From Bdellovibrionia bacterium (GTDB lineage Bacteria; Bdellovibrionota; UBA1018), in assembly GCA_045805065.1 (NCBI GenBank), contig JBJMMA010000237.1:1-16174 (forward strand): DNA of 16,174 bases, in the 5' to 3' direction. The first letter of the stretch is position 1; every line of letters starts with the position of its first letter. Position numbers: made by a program. Below, piece by piece: positions 1-9,000 of this stretch.

Positions 1-3000
1 ACTCTGGGCGGACTTCAAACCTCATTGGGCGTTGGTGGTGTGGTGGCCGATGGTTCTTGGGCTCGCGCTTGCCTGGGCCAAGCAGGGGAGTGCCTGGGCA
101 AAGTGGCAGACCCGTTACGGGCTTACTCTGGGAGCAGTGGTCCTGGTCTGTTGTCATGTGCCAGTGGTTCAATACGCCATTTACAAGGCAAAGAGCGAGC
201 AAGCGGATCCAAGACTGGATGTGACGAACGATCTTTACGGGTGGCAAAAGCTGGGTGAGTTTTTGCGGAAGCAGCCTGGAAACGAAGATCTTTCGATTCC
301 TGTTTTAGGGTCTCGCTATCAAACCGCATCACAGGCATGGTTTGCCTTAGGTGCAAAAGCCAGGGTCAGCATGCTGCCGTTGGATGTTAAGTCCCGCGAT
401 GAGTGGCCTAATCTCTCTGTATCAAAAAGCTTAGGACCTGACTGGTCTGAGCTGACTCATCCCGTTTTCTTTGTTGCGGATAACCGATATGACGCTGCTC
501 CTGAGTTTCCTCATTCTCGCTGCAATAAAGCGGGAAGGGTCCAAGAGGATCGCGCTGGCTATCCCGCCAAATGGATCGATGTCTGGCGCTGTGAGCCCAT
601 GTGATCAGCTTGCCTGATCAATGTGTGGTGATCAGCTTGCCTGATCACATGTAAAATGATCAGTTCGTTACCGTGCCGTTTGTAGCAGCAGGAACGACCT
701 GGACCGAATCCGTGCGAATCCAACCAGCGATCTCTTCGCCATTTTGTGAGGCGCTAGCCGATTGCGGAAGGACCTTAAACCAGCGATCGTTCCAATCCGT
801 GACGACGTACTTGGCTCTCTCGTCGGCATTGCCTACGACGGGATAAACCATTCCAGGGCCTGAACGAAGGTGGATGTTCTTTGCTTTGGGTTGAACGACC
901 AAAGGTGGATTGTCGCTCGAGAGCTGTACCGGGTGAGGAGCAGTCGGAGCAGGCATGCGCTCTGGAGCCATCGCCTGGCTTCGAACTTGATCCGAATATC
1001 CCGTATTAGGCTGAGCTTGTGCGACTTTGGCCACAGCAACAGGCGTAATCGGGTGAGACGTTTGCGCTACAGTGTCGCTCTCCTCGGCTCGTGCCGGGGC
1101 CTGGTGGCGATCGCTTAAAGTTGGGCGAGTCTTTTCGATGATCTCACCGCTTTGCATGAGCAGATAGAGGCCTGATCCCAGCGCAAAGGCCGCTGCAATG
1201 CCAATGGCCATCGGAAGAAGCCGGATTTTTCCAGCCGCTGCCGGAACTTCCGGAAGAGGCTCTGGGAAAAGCCCCATATTATTCACGCCATTCACGCCGT
1301 TCATGTAAGAAGGCATTGCGTTGCGGTCAACGCTTGCGCCTGCAGGCGCATTCGGGCCTGAGAGGGGACGTGCACCTGCTTCTTGTGACACTGGAGCAAA
1401 GGGTTGGGGATGAGAGATCTTGTCGAAAGGAAGATCCATCGCTGCAAGCGGATTTGAGCGATCTGTTTCAACGTGAGACGTATTGGCAGCGTGCAGGGGA
1501 TTGATCATTCCAGATGCCGTGTTTCGGCGGGTTGCGGGCTTAACAACCGGTTTGTCCGAATGAGCGGCAGGTGCTGCCGACATTGCGGCTGAAGACGCAG
1601 ATTGGGAAGCAGAAGTGCCTGCATTGTTCGTATAACGATTGAGAGTGCGGGTCGCTGCTTCGCTCAGAAGCGGATTTTCAGAAGATTCCGGAAGCAGGAC
1701 TTTTTCACCCGCCGGCGCGCGGTCCACTTTGATGATGTTGACTTCGGCCTTTCTGACGAGTGCGTATCCACCACATTGATAGCACCGAGAAAATGACCAG
1801 CTTGTGGTCATTTTATCATCAGCAATGCCTAAACTCACACCACAGTGCGGACAATTCCAACGCATGGGAAGCTCCCTCTGCGTACTAGTTTTTCACAGCT
1901 GGGATTTCGGTCAATGGGCAGTAGTTGCCGCATCAGGAGCCGCGCCCACGGGCTCCGCCAAAGGCACTCCAGTGGCCTCAGGAGCGAGGATGCGAAGAAC
2001 GACGCGTCGGTTCTTTGACAATGCTTCCTCATCCCACTCTCCGGCGGGATTGCGGGAAGGGGCTTCCGGCCGGGTGTCGGCATAGCCGATGGCGGCAAGT
2101 TTTTGAGGCGAGAACCCGAGATCCAGAAACATTCGCACAACGCGCGAGGCACGCGCTCCGGAGAGTTCCCAGTTGGTGGGGAATGTGCCGCCTAAGATCG
2201 GTCTGCTATCGGTGTGACCCTCAACTATGATCCGGTACTCTCTCTTGTCGGCTTGTTGACGATTGGAGATCGTCGCGATGAGTTTATCAAGCACGACCTT
2301 GCCTTCGGGCTTCACGTCCGCCGAAAGGGTGTCAAAGAAGACGGTGGATTGAAACGTCACGCTCACGCCAGTGGCGTCCGTTTTGACGTTTGCAAGCTTT
2401 CCAAGCTGAGCATCGCTGATGACTTGAGTGATGAAGTTGGCGAGCTCCTGAACCTTGGGTTTTTCGTATTTTCCTTTGAACTGTGTGGCGAGCTCTTTCT
2501 TGGCTGACTCAAACTTGTTTTGGTCCACCGTAGAAAGCGCAAACATCATGATGAAAAACCCGCAAAGCAGGGTCATCATGTCGGCATAAGAAACCAGCCA
2601 GTTGGTCTCGTCGTGATGCTGAGTCTGATAAGGATTGGATTCCTTATGCCTCTTTGGCAGAGGAAACTCATGCTCCTTATTGTATTTGATCCTCTTCGTA
2701 TTCACGCAGCTTTTCTCACGACGCGTTCACGAGGCATGAGGAAGGAGTTGAGCCCTTCGCGCATTGCGATCGGATTGACCTGGGACTTGAGCATAAGCGT
2801 GCCTTCCACGATCATGCGCCGAAGAGTGAGCTCCTCATGTGAGCGCTCAGTCAGGTTCTCCGCGATGGGAAGGAAGATCAGGTTTGCCAGTGCAATCCCA
2901 TAGAGGGTTCCAATCAGACCGACGGACATGGCAGGTCCGATGAGCTTCTGACTATCGGCCTGGCCGACCTTCTGAAGGACACCGATCATGCCAAGCGTTG

Positions 3001-6000: not shown

Positions 6001-9000
6001 CAAGCGTATCGAGATAGCGTTGGATGAGCTCGAGAAGCTTTCCGCGCGAGACGGCGCCAATCTTGTCGGCCATCAGAATCTTCATCTTTGCGGAAGTTGG
6101 CGCAAGAGAATCAGGTCCGACCGGAGGTGGTTCATCAAAGCCTGGTGCGATCGTTTCAGGGACGTTAAGATCGACTTGAACGGCAACAGACAGAAGCTTG
6201 CACTGGTCATGACAATACTTATCGAGAAGCGGTTCCACCAACCGGCGGATCTGGTTCTCAGTCGACTTTTGGACAGTCTCGCGAACCGTGCTTGCTCCAG
6301 GCAAGGTCGCTGCAAGAGAAGGGGTTGCCAAGGAGCCGCCGATCAGTCCAGCGAGCACGATCAGAGCTGATAATCTCATCATCAGAGCTCTTTTCATGAA
6401 ACTTCTCATGGCGTCACCTCCGCCTGGCTCTCACCAGAGCTAGAGGGCGATGCTGCAGGAATGCGTCCGCCGCGTCGCTCGATGAAGCGACGAAGAGTTT
6501 GATCTCCTGGATTGAACCGAAGTGCTTGTCCCCAGGACTTCAAGGCAAGATCTCTGCGACCTACGCGATCCAGAAGCGTGCCCTTCATCTCATGAAGTTT
6601 CGGATCGGTTGGGAAATCGTGGATCATGGAGTCCACTTCAATCAGGCCGGCCTCATAGCGACCCATGCGATAGAGTTGCTTGATGTGATCCATGGATGCC
6701 AGATAGCTCTTCTGGCGTTCAGGGGTCATTTCTTCGGATTGAACCAGGCCCAGACCTTTTTCGATATCGCTTCTCTTTTGCTCATCTTCAAAAGGCGCTT
6801 GGGAGAACTTTCTTGTCAGCTCGCGGTCGGTCCTGGTCGGAGCCAGGTTTGCGTAAGCGTTTTCAGCAGCGGGTACAGCAGAGTCATCTGCCGCCGAGGC
6901 TGGAGCGCGCGAAGCTGATCCGCCTGAGACAGGGAGCACGAAATCGGTAACTCCTTGGTTTGCGCGGGAGAGCTCAACCTCAACTGCCTTGTTTCCGTTT
7001 TTGGAGCGGAAGATCATCGTGTCCGCTGGATCTGCGTTATTTGCCAAAGTTGGCTCATAATCGCCGAAAGGATTGGAGATCGGTTTGTTTTCCTCTTTTG
7101 AGGTGTCGGCGGCAAAAATGCCACGAACGCTTGAGCAGGCGACGCACGAGAGCGACGCGAGAGCCAGGGCTCCTGCGATTCTCATCGTGTTTTTTCTCGT
7201 CGTCCGTTTCACGTTCTCATCTCCTTAGAATAAAATGTGGATTCCTAAGCCTGCTTCAACTCCGCCCACTTCGCCTGCCGGATTGCTCGAAATAAATGCC
7301 GTGGATTTCGGGCGATATCCAAGAGTTGGCGAAACCGCATAGCTCTTGCCCAGGCGCCATTCGTACTGGGCGCGGAGCAGGCCGCCTAAAAATCCTGAGG
7401 CGTAAGTTCCACCCAGGCCAAGCATGAAGCTTCCACGAGGATGGTTATAGTTCTCTTCATCACCGATGAAGTTCCAGCCATGGACAAACAAAAGAGTCGC
7501 GTTGACGCCCGAGTAAAGGTCCACGGTGGAGCTGGTTGATCCTACGATGCTTGAGGCGTTCTTTAGGACATCGATCTCAAATCCCACTTCTTTGTGGCGA
7601 TTGTCGTAGCGCTCGACGGCGCGGAAGCCGATGCCTGCAGCGCCAGTACGTTCGCCCACATTTGGCTCAGAAAGATAAAGCACTCCCAGGCGATATTGAA
7701 TCGTCGGGACATACTCTGCCTGCTTGCGGGAGTCATCAATCTGGCTGTAATCGACGCCGCGGCGGGCAGCCGAGGTGCGCGAGTTTTCAGAATTATAAGT
7801 TCTGCTCCAGATGATCGTTCCTTGCTCGGGATCCGTAATATGGAGAGAGAGAAGCATTCCCGAAGATTGATAGGCGAATGAAACGTCCATGAAATGAAGG
7901 ATGCCGTTCTCTTTGGCGATCCTGGATAATTCAACTGGGTTTGAGTCAGGTGAGCTCACGACGACCTTATCGCCGCTGAGCTGCGTGCGCTTGGAGCGGC
8001 ACTGCAGACACTGAATCACGCGAGTCTTGCTGGTCTTCAAAATACGCTCACTCACCAGAAGCTCAAGATGGCTTCGGAATGAAGGAGGCACGTTCTCGCT
8101 CATGGCGATGTTGCGCACAGAAAGATCTTTGAGGCCTTGAACGTTTCCGTTCTTTAGGTCGTATTCAAAATCAGAAAGCACATCTTCGAGCACTTCGTAG
8201 AAGTTTCTGGTCTTTGAATCGCTGTCGGCGGCTTTCGCGACAGAAGGGTGAACGCCCGCCACAAGTGCCAGCCCTACGGCCAAAGCCGCGCTGATGCTGA
8301 GATTTTTAAATGTCCTGTTCAATAGACGTCGCACTTGAGGCTCCTTCCTCACTTGCTCTTCGGAGTTTCACCGCAGGGCTTGATGAAAAAGTGCGTATTT
8401 CTGGACACTCCTTTTCTCTTTGTACGAAATGAACAAAATTGCCTCACGCTCTGGGAACTATTTGCCGAGAAAAAGGGGAGATGAAAGCGAGTCTTCGTCA
8501 TAGAATTGGGTCCGTCAAGTGGCTGACGCTGATGCTTGGAGCCGGGGGTGCCTGGCTTGGAGTCGCAGGGTGCAGCACAACGAACACCCTTTCTCCGCAT
8601 GAACCAGCGAAAGAAGTCGCGTTGCCAGCGTACGCTTATCTGCCGCATCCGGCAGGGCATACAACGGGCGATGTCATCAGCCTTTTTACTGAGAGGGGTG
8701 CGCCCTCGCGCGTGACTATGGCCAAGTGCGAGGATGAATTCCGCACGCTTTACTCCAAGGCGCAAAGTATCGAAGAGCGCACAAAAGGCGTTCGGGAACT
8801 AGTGAGTCGCAATCCTGCAGCCTATCATTGGTGTTTCTATTCTCAGATCCTTGGTCTTGAGGAAGGGCTGAGTCAGGATGAGTTTGTTGATCAGAAGCAA
8901 AAACGCGTCATGACGACCTACGAGTATCTCGTCCCGGTTGCTCGCGCTTTCATGAAAGAGTTCCAGGATTCCCGCTATCTCAGATGGGCCATTCAGGACT

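What a model noticed while it worked through the whole genome (the two positions that open the first line are those of the whole stretch)
660..8334. Order-wide operon with a natural FliF-FliG fusion protein, its own MotAB stator and a cNMP-binding protein
C237:660-8334 (minus strand, g03675 to g03669) is a seven-gene operon built around g03673 (808 aa): signal/anchor, a ~340-aa periplasmic part resembling the ring-building domains of the MS-ring protein FliF, one membrane helix, then a cytoplasmic FliG-like part that keeps the charged torque helix through which FliG meets MotA but has lost the EHPQ motif that binds FliM. It is followed by a 166-aa cyclic-nucleotide-binding protein, a flagellar-type MotA/MotB pair and a 401-aa protein, and preceded by a probable outer-membrane barrel (369 aa) and a TPR lipoprotein (268 aa). 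Ordinary fliF, fliG, fliM, fliN lie elsewhere, so this looks like a second rotor-stator module (or a membrane-bound stato [...]
Evidence so far: Pfam FliG_M 1.4e-8 and FliG_C 8.1e-12 at residues 562-769, nothing on 1-560. Profile of 23 homologs hits FliG structures 3hjl (6e-10), 3ajc, 1lkv and the engineered FliF-FliG fusion 8z4d. ESM-Atlas structure neighbours of residues 40-275 are YscJ_FliF / YscJ_FliF_C clusters (TM 0.43-0.50) and 550-625-aa FliG_C proteins of Myxococcota and Balneolota. Read directly: hydrophobic helix VYALIFGCSILSLLIFIAIASM near residue 390. Alignment of g03673 and 8 homologs with the genome's own FliG g02787: NEHPQTVALIL of FliG reads NESITVKAIIL or ESLT in all 9; acidic cluster and following Arg of the torque helix kept in all 9, the first basic residue in 8 of 9. 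Own fliF g02786, fliG g02787, fliM, fliN pres [...]
(Added by a program. Inside this text positions count along the whole contig: contig position 1 is position 1 of the stretch shown here. "Call 12" and the like, gene names such as g00115 and contig names such as C1 are that model's own, and its searches are not shown. The text may have been shortened before it was handed on; [...] marks where a part breaks off. The agent that wrote the report below was given it as the finding of a first reader that could run no searches.)

Follow-up and report, generated by a model that had tools for sequence, protein, structure and literature searches.

The report
Flagellum-free FliG rotor and MotAB module
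This operon encodes a membrane protein that joins FliF-like ring domains to a FliG-like torque domain, together with its own MotAB ion motor and outer-envelope partners, and the same gene set occurs in bacteria that have no flagellum, so it looks like a separate machine built from flagellar motor parts.

Summary
Window 660-8352 (minus strand) holds seven tightly packed genes:
- an outer-membrane protein (375 aa)
- a TPR-like lipoprotein (268 aa)
- an 808-aa protein with signal peptide, two ring-building-motif-like domains, one membrane helix and a full FliG-like cytoplasmic part
- a cNMP-binding protein
- MotA and MotB
- a zinc-ribbon/SH3 membrane protein

My AlphaFold model of the periplasmic part (pLDDT 82) finds FliF MS-ring structures as its best matches. 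The FliG part keeps the torque-helix charges but has lost the EHPQ motif.

The five core genes were syntenic in 15 of 15 loci examined in the order. The protein was found in 68 of 91 sampled genomes of that order.

A shorter form of the same five-gene module occurs in Bradymonadales (Myxococcota). In that class, 24 of 30 module-bearing genomes have no FliM. In three genomes without FliM, flagellin, FliG or full FliF, the module's MotB is the only plug-bearing MotB. The module therefore does not need a flagellum.

Module MotAs lack the canonical ARKEGxLAxE rotor-contact motif that the flagellar paralogs keep.

Best reading (about 0.6): an autonomous, unswitched rotor-stator machine spanning the envelope, output unknown. 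I found no description in print.

The parts
7225..8352 (-). g03675, outer-membrane protein (375 aa): signal peptide, periplasmic alpha/beta domain (residues ~52-190) and a C-terminal 8-stranded beta-barrel (residues ~214-375)
   Evidence: No Pfam or NCBIfam hit. The AlphaFold2 model on 22 sequences has pLDDT 76.4. The barrel matches NspA at Z 16.7 (rmsd 2.1, 139 aligned), and also OprF-N, OmpA and OmpW. The N-domain matches the LpoB C-domain at Z 9.6 (rmsd 3.6, 123 aligned). Foldseek gives TolB at 7e-7 and FlgT 3w1e at 3.8e-3. Syntenic in 15/15 loci of the order and in the Bradymonadales loci.
6406..7212 (-). g03674, lipoprotein (268 aa) with a conserved PIxNPF motif after the lipid-anchor Cys and a TPR-like C-terminal part
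   Evidence: Only sub-threshold TPR hits here (TPR_14 0.027, TPR_2 0.037). The 16 Bdellovibrionota-side orthologues printed (15 of the order plus L031) and 4 Bradymonadales ones show a Cys in a lipobox-like context; the 16 also show the NPF motif, which the 4 Bradymonadales sequences lack. The window's own lipobox is imperfect. Syntenic in 15/15 loci and in Bradymonadales.
3983..6409 (-). g03673 (808 aa), the FliF-like/FliG-like fusion; whole gene
   Evidence: 169 homologues at E <= 0.001, mostly 740-840 aa. The alignment of 22 has 59% mean column identity.
5960..6289 (-). g03673 residues ~41-150: first ring-building-motif-like domain. It carries invariant C66/C70 (CxxxC) and an invariant PGF in the low-confidence loop between the two strands
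   Evidence: In the AF2 model, helix 2-26, strands 31-42 and 63-75, helix 80-94 and strand 101-108. Matches Vibrio FliF 8z5v_A residues 259-452 at Z 10.9 (rmsd 2.5, 95 aligned) and EscJ at Z 8.1.
5615..5947 (-). g03673 residues ~155-265: second ring-building-motif-like domain, with invariant C182/C186
   Evidence: AF2 model residues 116-224. Matches CdsD 4qo6 at Z 6.7 and the Shigella inner-membrane ring 6rwx at Z 6.6. Foldseek aligns both domains together to FliF chains 7bk0_B (3.6e-8), 8zds, 8t8p and 6scn.
5282..5587 (-). g03673 residues ~275-376: Ser/Asn-rich variable linker, then a conserved charged segment (ERFExxEKIERVENGDAV) just outside the membrane
   Evidence: Alignment A1: the linker varies in length; E357 to A367 are invariant.
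5216..5281 (-). g03673 residues 377-398: the single membrane helix
   Evidence: Hydropathy scan, peak 2.65. With the N-terminal signal peptide this puts the N part in the periplasm and the C part in the cytoplasm (inference).
4079..5077 (-). g03673 residues ~445-777: FliG-like cytoplasmic part, covering most of FliG (N-domain partly, M and C fully)
   Evidence: hhalign against the genome's own FliG gives probability 97.7, E 1.8e-12, 288 columns, FliG residues 40-328. Pfam FliG_M and FliG_C hit. TIGR00207 scores 54.7 bits, far below its 226.7-bit cut-off.
3486..3986 (-). g03672, stand-alone cyclic-nucleotide-binding protein (166 aa)
   Evidence: cNMP_binding 4.2e-20. The phosphate-binding cassette FGEMSL...PRSATV is kept, and the best solved relatives are PKG/PKA nucleotide-binding domains. 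Present in 12 of 15 loci of the order. A homologue lies a few kb downstream in 6 of 27 Bradymonadales loci.
2702..3484 (-). g03671, MotA (260 aa), flagellar-type architecture with a changed rotor-contact motif
   Evidence: Aligns end to end with solved MotA/PomA (8ucs 1.1e-34, 8bri 2.5e-27). Below all NCBIfam equivalog cut-offs. Reads NK[KR]A-SxGLxxLx[ED] where the canonical paralogs read ARKEGxLAxE.
1911..2705 (-). g03670, MotB (264 aa): plug, membrane helix with the conserved Asp (YADMMTLL), OmpA-like peptidoglycan-binding domain
   Evidence: MotB_plug 1.3e-18 and OmpA 7e-14. The Asp is read directly from the sequence.
660..1865 (-). g03669 (401 aa): N-terminal zinc ribbon (CPHC...CYQC), long disordered stretches, one membrane helix (219-237), C-terminal SH3b-like domain. 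A less conserved accessory
   Evidence: SH3_3 0.0048, below cut-off. The nearest Atlas cluster scores 0.93 and carries Zn_Ribbon_1 in 79% and SH3_3 in 40% of members. A BLAST match follows MotB in 11 of 15 loci.
8439..9575 (+). Divergently transcribed lipoprotein-like gene (378-aa ORF, VAGC lipobox); a possible further component
   Evidence: No Pfam hit. A homologue was found in 13 of 15 loci of the order, in 12 of them next to the barrel gene (in L026 it lies about 4.6 kb away). Not found beside the Bradymonadales modules with this query.

Best explanation
[quoted passage not shown] Proposed mechanism:
1. g03673 is exported by its signal peptide. Its two ring-building-motif domains oligomerise into a ring on the periplasmic face of the inner membrane. 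Its single helix crosses the membrane. Its FliG-like domains form a ring underneath with the charged torque helix exposed.
2. The operon's own MotA/MotB units are anchored to peptidoglycan by MotB. They conduct ions through the conserved-Asp channel, and MotA pushes on the torque helix.
3. The FliM-binding EHPQ motif and the MFXF hinge are gone, and many hosts encode no FliM. The ring would therefore have no C-ring and no switch.
4. The lipoprotein and the outer-membrane protein (8-strand barrel with a TolB-N/LpoB-like periplasmic domain) either scaffold the stators or carry the output to the outer membrane.
5. In this order a cNMP-binding protein probably gates the machine.

What is shown: the domain homologies, the conserved residues, the synteny across two phyla, and occurrence without flagellar genes.

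What is inferred: ring formation, stator-rotor contact, rotation, and the roles of the outer components.

The output is unknown. My guess is force delivery to the outer envelope, for surface movement or prey contact.
For: Architecture:
- Signal peptide, two RBM-like domains, one helix and a FliG-like part.
- FliF chains are the top hits by Foldseek (7bk0_B 3.6e-8, probability 1.00, about 270 columns across both domains) and by VIA-align (8z5v_A Z 10.9, 6scn_A Z 10.2).
- The FliG-like part aligns to the genome's own FliG at probability 97.7 over 288 columns.
- The five torque-helix charge positions are kept in 19-22 of 22 homologues.

Stator:
- Full-length likeness to solved MotA/PomA.
- MotB has the plug, the Asp and the OmpA domain.
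- These are the features that PMC12505986 (section 7 read) lists as specific to flagellar-type stators.

Conservation:
- The five core genes are syntenic in 15 of 15 loci from 9 families of the order.
- A distant locus of another family of the phylum (L031) has the same five genes in another order.
- All 27 Bradymonadales loci show, in the same order, every one of the five genes that the contig reaches.

Autonomy from the flagellum:
- Of five Bradymonadales genomes with the module, four lack FliM and lack flagellin over cut-off. In those four, the only FliG_C hits are two weak ones in long open frames, the one traced being the module's own protein, and the YscJ_FliF hits lie in open frames of only 227-269 aa.
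- In three of them the only MotB_plug protein is the module's own.
- In the class as sampled, 30 of 113 genomes have the module and 37 of 113 have FliM. Only 6 have both.

Separate stator lineage:
- Canonical stators of the order, and of one flagellated Bradymonadales-related genome, read ARKEG[VL]LA[VL]E. No module MotA does.
- In a quick tree the module MotAs form a clade (SH-aLRT 99) apart from the MotA_N-bearing stators.
Against: - No expression, localisation or structural data exist for any member.
- Ring formation is not shown.
- The alpha-beta-beta-alpha-beta fold is common. Cation-transporter C-terminal domains and OsmC-like proteins score Z 8-9.6, close to FliF's 10-11. No FliF sequence profile hits the protein.
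- There is no rod, export gate or other obvious load for a rotor to turn.
A link to the flagellum there cannot be excluded.
- The MotAs of the order-type and Bradymonadales-type modules do not group together in the quick tree. The stator may have been exchanged, or the two modules may be less equivalent than synteny suggests.
- The Bradymonadales genomes are mostly MAGs, and the tool gave no completeness figures for them. Some FliM absences could be assembly gaps.
Confidence: 0.6

Rival explanations
1. A static docking platform rather than a rotor. The ring (or a smaller oligomer) of g03673 recruits and unplugs MotAB through the torque helix. The module would then act as a regulated ion path or an envelope-tension or PMF sensor. 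Alternatively MotA rotation is passed to something other than the ring. The cNMP protein sets the activity.
For: No axial load is encoded. Conservation of the torque helix is explained equally well by binding alone. A cyclic-nucleotide sensor sits in the operon. The long disordered linkers on both sides of the membrane helix look like a poor shaft.
Against: Ring-building motifs and a full FliG M and C arrangement are what a rotor needs. The outer-membrane and lipoprotein partners are conserved across phyla, which suggests mechanical coupling across the envelope. The cNMP gene is missing in 3 of 15 loci and is not adjacent in Bradymonadales.
Confidence: 0.22
2. A flagellar accessory in this order. 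The MotAB pair would be one of several interchangeable flagellar stators. g03673 would be a membrane-bound decoy, store or brake that holds stators away from, or delivers them to, the flagellar motor.
For: The genome has a complete-looking flagellar core (fliF, fliG, fliM) and three plug-bearing MotB genes. Multiple stator sets on one flagellum are known in Bdellovibrio (recalled from memory, not checked here).
Against: The module occurs where no flagellar genes were found. Module MotAs lack the canonical rotor-contact motif that the other stators of the same order keep and form their own clade. The partners are an outer-membrane barrel and a lipoprotein, not flagellar genes. 23 of 91 sampled genomes of the order lack the periplasmic part.
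Confidence: 0.1
3. An evolutionary relic: decaying leftovers of a duplicated flagellar gene set with no present function.
For: EHPQ is lost. Scores fall below the curated FliG, MotA and MotB equivalog cut-offs.
Against: Frames are intact in the complete gene copies examined. There are 100-plus invariant positions among 22 homologues of 47-90% identity. Gene order is conserved across two phyla. Several paralogous variants have been retained.
Confidence: 0.02

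Closest known systems
Flagellar motor core: FliF MS-ring, FliG and the MotA5B2 stator
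   Same: RBM-type periplasmic ring domains, a membrane anchor, FliG M and C domains with the charged torque helix, and a plug-bearing, peptidoglycan-anchored MotAB with the channel Asp.
   Different: FliF and FliG are one polypeptide. There are two RBMs instead of three, with only a ~20-residue loop where FliF RBM3 carries the beta-collar. A signal peptide replaces the first membrane helix. The EHPQ motif is absent. LVSV stands where the own FliG has MFVF (the role of that motif is recalled). No FliM/FliN, export gate, rod or hook genes are associated. MotA lacks the ARKEGxLAxE motif. Relatives live in bacteria in which no flagellar genes were found.
Engineered or spontaneous FliF-FliG fusions of Salmonella and Vibrio (PDB 8z4d/8z4g; PMC11481574 and PMC6079021, search listings and abstracts only)
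   Same: A covalent FliF-FliG chain. According to those abstracts, such fusions assemble rings. 8z4d is among the sequence hits of the FliG-like part and the structural hits of the periplasmic part.
   Different: Those are full-length canonical FliF plus FliG working within a flagellum. This is a natural, much diverged, shortened protein with its own stator and outer-envelope partners.
Chlamydiaceae FliF-FliG fusion (Bergeron 2016, PMC4768692; passages read)
   Same: A natural fusion in a non-flagellated bacterium, with a shortened periplasmic region of two RBM-like domains and a cytoplasmic FliG-like part.
   Different: The chlamydial protein is about 330 aa and has only a FliG-M-like region. 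The paper describes no MotAB partner and proposes a link to the injectisome. Here the FliG part includes the torque-generating C domain, and a dedicated MotAB, barrel and lipoprotein are encoded alongside.
Periplasmic stator scaffolds of elaborated flagellar motors (Vibrio MotX/MotY T-ring and FlgT H-ring; Campylobacter PflA/PflB). Names and roles are recalled, not checked here
   Same: A TPR/Sel1-type periplasmic protein plus a protein with a TolB-N-like domain sit beside a MotAB stator. FlgT (3w1e) appears among the Foldseek hits of g03675 at 3.8e-3.
   Different: No sequence relationship was found. g03675 carries its own 8-stranded outer-membrane barrel. There is no flagellar basal body for it to attach to in the non-flagellated hosts.
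Non-flagellar 5:2 ion-driven motors (ExbBD-TonB, TolQR-TolA-TolB-Pal, AglRQS-Glt, GldLM, ZorAB)
   Same: An inner-membrane ion-driven motor coupled to periplasmic and outer-membrane partners in bacteria without flagella. The periplasmic domain of g03675 has the TolB-N/LpoB fold.
   Different: By PMC12505986 those systems belong to the 'generic' clade, which lacks the expanded cytoplasmic interface, the plug and the OmpA-type domain. This stator has all three, and it alone is paired with a FliG-like partner.

Membership tests
FliG (flagellar motor switch protein; Pfam FliG_N/M/C, TIGR00207) | Homology to the FliG middle and C-terminal domains | tested here: met
   FliG_M 1.4e-8 and FliG_C 8.1e-12. 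hhalign to the genome's own FliG gives probability 97.7 over 288 columns. PDB FliG hits fall at 3e-8 to 5e-7.
FliG (flagellar motor switch protein; Pfam FliG_N/M/C, TIGR00207) | Score above the curated equivalog cut-off | tested here: not met
   TIGR00207 scores 54.7 bits against a cut-off of 226.7.
FliG (flagellar motor switch protein; Pfam FliG_N/M/C, TIGR00207) | EHPQR motif of the middle domain (FliM contact) | tested here: not met
   The own FliG reads NEHPQT. The family reads E-S-[LIV]-T: H to S in 20/22, Q to T in 22/22.
FliG (flagellar motor switch protein; Pfam FliG_N/M/C, TIGR00207) | Charged residues of the torque helix (E. coli K264, R281, D288, D289, R297; the numbering is partly from PMC12505986 and the PMC7564593 abstract, partly recalled) | tested here: met
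   Counterparts are K710 (basic 22/22), 726 (basic 19/22), 733 (acidic 20/22), 734 (acidic 22/22) and R744 (22/22, one position off in the alignment).
FliG (flagellar motor switch protein; Pfam FliG_N/M/C, TIGR00207) | A separate soluble protein that docks on the FliF C-terminus and works within a flagellum | tested here: not met
   It is fused to a membrane anchor and periplasmic domains. Relatives occur in genomes in which no FliM, flagellin or FliF was found.
FliF / YscJ family (MS-ring protein; Pfam YscJ_FliF, YscJ_FliF_C) | Match to the family's sequence profiles | tested here: not met
   No Pfam or NCBIfam hit on residues 1-560. The genome's real FliF scores 2.9e-62.
FliF / YscJ family (MS-ring protein; Pfam YscJ_FliF, YscJ_FliF_C) | Ring-building-motif (alpha-beta-beta-alpha-beta) periplasmic domains | tested here: met
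   Two such domains in the model, pLDDT 82.3. FliF chains are the best matches by both methods. EscJ, PrgK, CdsD and SpoIIIAG are also listed.
FliF / YscJ family (MS-ring protein; Pfam YscJ_FliF, YscJ_FliF_C) | Third RBM with the beta-collar insertion; two membrane helices | tested here: not met
   There are only two RBM-like domains. A 20-residue low-confidence loop with an invariant PGF stands where FliF RBM3 has its long insertion. An N-terminal signal-peptide-like segment and one later helix are present.
FliF / YscJ family (MS-ring protein; Pfam YscJ_FliF, YscJ_FliF_C) | Assembly into a multi-subunit ring | not testable with these tools
   No result usable as evidence was obtained here. 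It needs purification and electron microscopy.
Flagellar-type stator (FIT clade of PMC12505986; MotAB/PomAB) | A subunit with four membrane helices and an expanded cytoplasmic interface; B subunit with plug, channel Asp and OmpA-type domain | tested here: met
   MotA aligns over residues 14-255 with solved MotA and 2-254 with PomA. MotB_plug 1.3e-18, OmpA 7e-14, YADMMTLL. The defining features were read in section 7 of the paper.
Flagellar-type stator (FIT clade of PMC12505986; MotAB/PomAB) | Curated equivalog scores for MotA/PomA/MotP and MotB/MotS/MotD | tested here: not met
   The best MotA hit scores 147 bits (cut-off 394). The best MotB hit scores 152.9 bits (cut-off 283).
Flagellar-type stator (FIT clade of PMC12505986; MotAB/PomAB) | Rotor-contact charges at the positions of E. 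coli MotA R90 and E98 | tested here: not met
   Canonical paralogs read ARKEG[VL]LA[VL]E. In all 16 MotAs of this type (window plus 15 order loci) the basic pair lies one or two positions earlier with a one-residue deletion, and the acid lies one position later. The L031 MotA lacks the canonical motif in a different way. The Bradymonadales-type and variant-module MotAs also lack the motif.
Flagellar-type stator (FIT clade of PMC12505986; MotAB/PomAB) | Works on a flagellum | tested here: inconclusive
   This cannot be decided for the window's genome, which has flagellar genes. In G401, G402 and G404 the homologous stator is the only plug-bearing one, and no FliM, no flagellin over cut-off, and no FliG or full FliF was found.

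The most novel reading that the evidence does not exclude
FliG and flagellar-type MotAB are not exclusive to flagella. A diversified family of membrane-anchored 'RBM ring plus FliG' rotors, each with its own stator, TPR lipoprotein and outer-membrane partner, forms stand-alone, unswitched rotary motors. These would deliver proton-motive force to the outer envelope.

The family includes at least this two-RBM type, the one-RBM Bradymonadales type, and several further variants in the same order. It occurs in two lineages that include predatory bacteria, and it may power gliding or prey attack. It may also preserve a stage of motor evolution with rotor and stator but no export apparatus.
Probability: 0.4. 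Interest if true: 0.95.

Novelty: new variant of a known kind. Interest (0 to 1): 0.85.

Why it matters
The FliG-MotA interface is the textbook torque-generating contact of the bacterial flagellum. Flagellar-type stators (plug, OmpA domain, expanded cytoplasmic interface) have been treated as a hallmark of flagellar motility (PMC12505986).

This finding gives a conserved gene set that pairs such a stator with a FliG-like, FliF-like fusion protein. It occurs in bacteria in which no flagellar genes were found, among them a cultured strain of a group that PMC7188933 describes as gliding. That would mean the rotor-stator pair has a second life as a separate envelope machine.

It also gives a testable handle on two open questions:
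- What drives surface movement and prey contact in Bradymonadales and in uncultured Bdellovibrionota.
- How a rotor-stator core could exist and be useful without the type III export apparatus, which bears on how the flagellar motor evolved.

A natural single-chain FliF-FliG without a C-ring would also be a simple object for structural work on torque generation.

Tried and rejected
- **Self-association of the periplasmic part** (four copies): no verdict. The median score was 0.41 against a mark of 0.42. I do not use it either way.
- **Expression**: no RNA holder is listed. Only four soil DNA runs of one study hold about a fifth to a quarter of the sampled words. I laid no reads.
- **First scan of genome contigs** with a 7-sequence alignment: it failed for lack of a conserved stretch. 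I repeated it with 4 closer sequences.
- **Cluster look-up of ten distant relatives**: no organism names came back.
- **The ~800-aa second-tier relatives** (for example P0142): searching 401 genomes of the phylum found only the order's own family at about 30% identity. Their hosts remain unknown.
- **Rfam** over the window: nothing. **Promoter and terminator scans** did not exceed shuffled expectation.
- **My own error.** I first mapped the FliG charges onto the wrong helix and concluded that the acidic pair was lost.
- **MotA tree**: the careful search did not finish in the time allowed. Only the quick tree (SH-aLRT, midpoint root, several long branches) is used, with caution. It does not join the order-type and Bradymonadales-type stators.
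I handed it in again with that value added.
- **Literature**: eight searches found no description of a MotAB plus membrane-FliG module outside flagella. Subscription journals are not covered, and I opened no supplements.
- **Considered and rejected:**
  - An injectisome part: no T3SS genes adjoin it, and MotAB does not belong there.
  - A Tol-Pal or TonB variant: the stator is of the flagellar type.

Full report
**1. What is in the window**

Seven ORFs lie head to tail on the minus strand between 660 and 8352. They are separated by 4-base overlaps or by gaps of at most 45 bases.

| Gene | Product | Family evidence |
|---|---|---|
| g03675 | 375 aa | no Pfam or NCBIfam hit |
| g03674 | 268 aa | no hit above threshold |
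| g03673 | 808 aa | FliG_M 1.4e-8 (562-631), FliG_C 8.1e-12 (663-769), nothing on 1-560 |
| g03672 | 166 aa | cNMP_binding 4.2e-20 |
| g03671 | 260 aa | MotA_ExbB 3.2e-20 |
| g03670 | 264 aa | MotB_plug 1.3e-18, OmpA 7e-14 |
| g03669 | 401 aa | weak SH3_3 only |

These are the Pfam results. NCBIfam agrees in kind, but every flagellar equivalog score is far below its cut-off:
- fliG: 54.7 bits against 226.7
- MotA/MotP: 141-147 bits against 340-394
- MotB/MotD: 152.9 bits against 283

The window is contig C237 of a 4.2-Mb, 262-contig genome, 94% complete. From the names attached to homologues it belongs to Bdellovibrionota. Consensus promoter and terminator scans and Rfam added nothing.

**2. 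The 808-aa protein**

An alignment of 22 homologues (47-90% identity) and a hydropathy scan give this order of parts:
- an N-terminal signal-peptide-like segment
- a conserved region, residues ~41-265, containing two CxxxC pairs (C66/C70 and C182/C186, all invariant) and an invariant PGF
- a Ser/Asn-rich linker of variable length
- an invariant charged segment (EKIERVENGDA)
- one strong membrane helix (377-398)
- a low-complexity cytoplasmic linker
- about 330 well conserved residues

I modelled residues 40-275 on an alignment of 16 orthologues. Mean pLDDT was 82.3, and the model shows two tandem alpha-beta-beta-alpha-beta domains.

Structure search results:
- Foldseek against the PDB puts seven FliF MS-ring chains first (7bk0_B 3.6e-8, then 8zds, 9a67, 8t8p, 6scn), aligned over about 270 columns, that is across both domains.
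- The Foldseek-independent search puts Vibrio FliF 8z5v_A first (Z 10.9, rmsd 2.5, 95 residues; chain residues 259-452) and Salmonella FliF 6scn_A second (Z 10.2, 173 residues).
- EscJ (Z 8.1), SpoIIIAG (7.3), PrgK, CdsD and the Shigella inner ring also appear.
- The fold is a common one. Cation-transporter C-terminal domains and OsmC-like proteins reach Z 8-9.6 in the same list.

I therefore call these domains ring-building-motif-like, with FliF as the best structural match. Homology to FliF is not proven, and no FliF sequence profile hits them.

**3. The cytoplasmic part**

A profile of this part aligns with the genome's own FliG (contig C184) at probability 97.7 and E 1.8e-12, over 288 columns covering FliG residues 40-328. 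Single-sequence hits to solved FliG structures, and to the engineered Vibrio FliF-FliG fusion 8z4d, lie at 3e-8 to 5e-7.

Where the own FliG reads NEHPQT, the family reads NES[LIV]T. Where it reads MFVF, the window reads LVSV.

The five charged torque-helix positions have these counterparts:

| E. coli FliG | Counterpart here | Kept in |
|---|---|---|
| K264 | 710, basic | 22/22 |
| R281 | 726, basic | 19/22 |
| D288 | 733, acidic | 20/22 |
| D289 | 734, acidic | 22/22 |
| R297 | R744, one position off | 22/22 |

The charge pairing R90-D289 and E98-R281 is stated in PMC12505986 and in the abstract of PMC7564593 (listing). The rest of the numbering is recalled. I first put these residues on the wrong helix and corrected the mapping.

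**4. The stator**

MotA aligns end to end with solved MotA and PomA chains (8ucs/6ysf 1e-34, 8bri 2.5e-27). MotB has the plug, the Asp in YADMMTLL and an OmpA-type domain. Section 7 of PMC12505986 (read) lists exactly these traits as setting flagellar-type stators apart from Exb/Tol/Agl-type relatives.

The rotor-contact motif differs, however. Canonical stators of the same order, one from a flagellated Bradymonadales-related genome, and the window genome's own partial paralog on C121 all read [AV]RKEG[VL]LA[VL]E. All 16 MotAs of this type (window plus 15 order loci) read NK[KR]A-SxGLxxLx[ED], with a one-residue deletion; the L031 MotA lacks the canonical motif in a different way.

The genome has three plug-bearing MotB genes (C237, C165, C83).

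**5. The outer components**

- *g03675.* The model (pLDDT 76.4) has a C-terminal 8-stranded barrel. It matches NspA at Z 16.7, and also OprF-N, OmpA and OmpW. It also has a periplasmic alpha/beta domain, residues 52-190, with the LpoB-C/TolB-N fold (4q6l Z 9.6; TolB 7e-7 by Foldseek; FlgT at 3.8e-3).
- *g03674.* It is a lipoprotein. All 16 Bdellovibrionota-side orthologues printed (15 of the order plus L031) and 4 Bradymonadales ones have a Cys in lipobox context. In the 16, a PIxNPF motif follows. Here it has only sub-threshold TPR hits. Stronger TPR hits occur in variant modules.
- *g03669.* It combines a zinc ribbon, one membrane helix and an SH3b-like domain.
- *g03672.* It keeps the phosphate-binding cassette of cyclic-nucleotide-binding domains.

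**6. Distribution and synteny**

The periplasmic part was found in 70 of 401 sampled genomes of the phylum. Of these, 68 are among the 91 other sampled genomes of the window's order, one is the window's own genome, and one is a weak hit in another family. The two largest families gave 0/53 and 0/100.

In 15 of 15 loci taken from 9 families of the order, barrel, lipoprotein, fusion protein, MotA and MotB are present in the same order. The cNMP gene is present in 12 of 15, a g03669-like gene in 11 of 15, and the divergent upstream lipoprotein gene in 13 of 15. The weak hit (L031) carries barrel, lipoprotein, MotA, MotB and a 557-aa one-RBM FliG-like protein.

A profile search of 1.84 billion representatives gave 1069 hits at E <= 0.001. 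Beyond the close family it found ~800-aa and ~970-aa two-RBM forms and several ~560-650-aa forms.

**7. The module without a flagellum**

A scan of species-representative genomes with four of the ~600-aa forms returned 27 loci. All are from Bradymonadales or other Myxococcota, including the isolate Lujinxingia vulgaris TMQ2. In every locus, each of the five genes that the contig reaches is present, in the order barrel, lipoprotein, MotA, MotB, FliG-like.

Five of these genomes were searched for flagellar families:
- FliM: 1 of 5.
- Flagellin over cut-off: 1 of 5.
- Canonical FliG: only in that same genome, G403.
- YscJ_FliF: hits in all five. In the four others they lie in open frames of only 227-269 aa. 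These look like injectisome SctJ, which fits the T3SS listed for the group in PMC7188933.
- In G401, G402 and G404 the only MotB_plug protein is the module's own.

Across the class as held (113 genomes), 30 have the FliG-like protein and 37 have FliM. Six have both, so 24 of 30 carriers lack FliM. No completeness figures were given for these genomes.

PMC7188933 (passages read) describes Bradymonas sediminis as lacking flagellar genes and gliding weakly, and Persicimonas as flagellated.

**8. More variants**

Neighbourhoods of MotA paralogs in the order:
- L096 and L097: TPR, MotA, MotB, then a 567-610-aa membrane protein with a weak FliG_C hit.
- L094: a 628-aa FliG_M/FliG_C protein followed by MotA.
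- L092: MotA, MotB, a 617-aa FliG-like protein, then TPR.
- L095: a MotB with plug and PDZ in place of OmpA.
- L098, L099 and the window genome's own C165: stators with the MotA_N domain and no such neighbours.

In a quick maximum-likelihood tree (the careful search was unfinished, there are long branches and the root is only at the midpoint):
- The window-type MotAs form a clade (SH-aLRT 99).
- That clade sits inside a larger one (98) together with these variant-module MotAs.
- The MotA_N-type stators form another group.
- The Bradymonadales-type MotAs form a third.

The module stators are thus a lineage, or several, apart from the ordinary flagellar stators. The tree does not show that the two main module types share one stator origin.

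**9. Interpretation**

The simplest account of a FliF-like ring domain fused through one helix to a FliG with an intact torque helix is an autonomous rotor-stator machine. The fusion is always encoded with a plug-bearing, wall-anchored MotAB and with outer-envelope partners, and this holds in hosts without flagellar genes.

Loss of the FliM-binding motif, together with absence of FliM from many hosts, argues that it has no switch complex.

What it turns or pulls is not known. The barrel with its TolB-N-like domain and the TPR lipoprotein could hold the stators in place, as accessory rings do in some flagellar motors (recalled). They could also pass force to the outer membrane.

The rivals are a static stator-docking or sensing platform, a flagellar accessory in this particular order, and a relic. 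They are weighed in their own sections.

**10. Novelty**

Eight full-text searches found no description of such a module. The nearest items in print are:
- the chlamydial FliF-FliG fusion (PMC4768692)
- the engineered fusions (listings only)
- the FIT/GIT stator classification (PMC12505986)

The library does not cover most subscription journals, and I opened no supplements.

Noticed in passing
L090:1494-4073 (G403:C12, a flagellated genome that also carries the module at L055): A canonical natural FliF-FliG fusion. One 859-aa ORF carries YscJ_FliF (1.4e-53), YscJ_FliF_C, FliG_N, FliG_M and FliG_C (1.9e-43), and fliH follows it. It looks like a natural counterpart of the laboratory FliF-FliG fusions, inside a flagellar operon.
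   Followed up: partly
L096:4982-9127, L097:1632-5477, L094:5242-7965, L092:2743-6920: Further paralogous modules in the same order: TPR, MotA, MotB and a 567-628-aa protein with signal peptide, a short periplasmic domain, one helix and a FliG-like part. The gene orders differ between loci. One is followed by a CheA-like kinase and one by a 1501-aa NHL-repeat protein. The window's genome has none of these by tblastn.
   Followed up: partly
L095:6741-8530 (G025:C11): A MotA paired with a MotB that has the plug but a PDZ domain where the OmpA domain should be. A 528-aa protein with no known family and a response-regulator/TPR protein follow.
   Followed up: no
L092:3-2543 (G132:C142, runs off the contig): An ORF of at least 847 aa with three Laminin_G_3 (concanavalin-like) repeats (4e-45), followed in the same frame by a MotA_ExbB domain (3e-20). 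It is divergent from a MotAB/FliG-like module.
   Followed up: no
G000:C105:18974-19237 (minus strand; the 151-aa open frame that holds this match): A third, small FliG_C-like hit in the window's genome (1.7e-7): a 151-aa stand-alone protein.
   Followed up: no
window 5850-6220 (C66, C70, C182, C186 of g03673): Each RBM-like domain starts its first strand with an invariant CxxxC. The Bradymonadales one-RBM forms have the same motif (RLCPGRCEL). In the periplasm these could be disulfides or a metal site.
   Followed up: no
window 11000-13000: G+C falls to 0.45-0.48 against 0.52-0.55 elsewhere. The stretch holds small ORFs (207, 246, 149, 89 aa) without any Pfam family. Next to it is a 615-aa ORF, also without a family.
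   Followed up: no
L050:1057-6369 and L050:11791-13452 (Lujinxingia vulgaris): In Bradymonadales the five-gene core is flanked by further genes conserved in 10-18 of the other 26 loci. Upstream lie genes of 555 aa, 232 aa (weak OMP_b-brl hit), about 796 aa and 329 aa. Downstream lie genes of 368 aa and 183 aa. Apart from that one weak hit, none matches a Pfam family. The machine there may have about eleven parts.
   Followed up: partly
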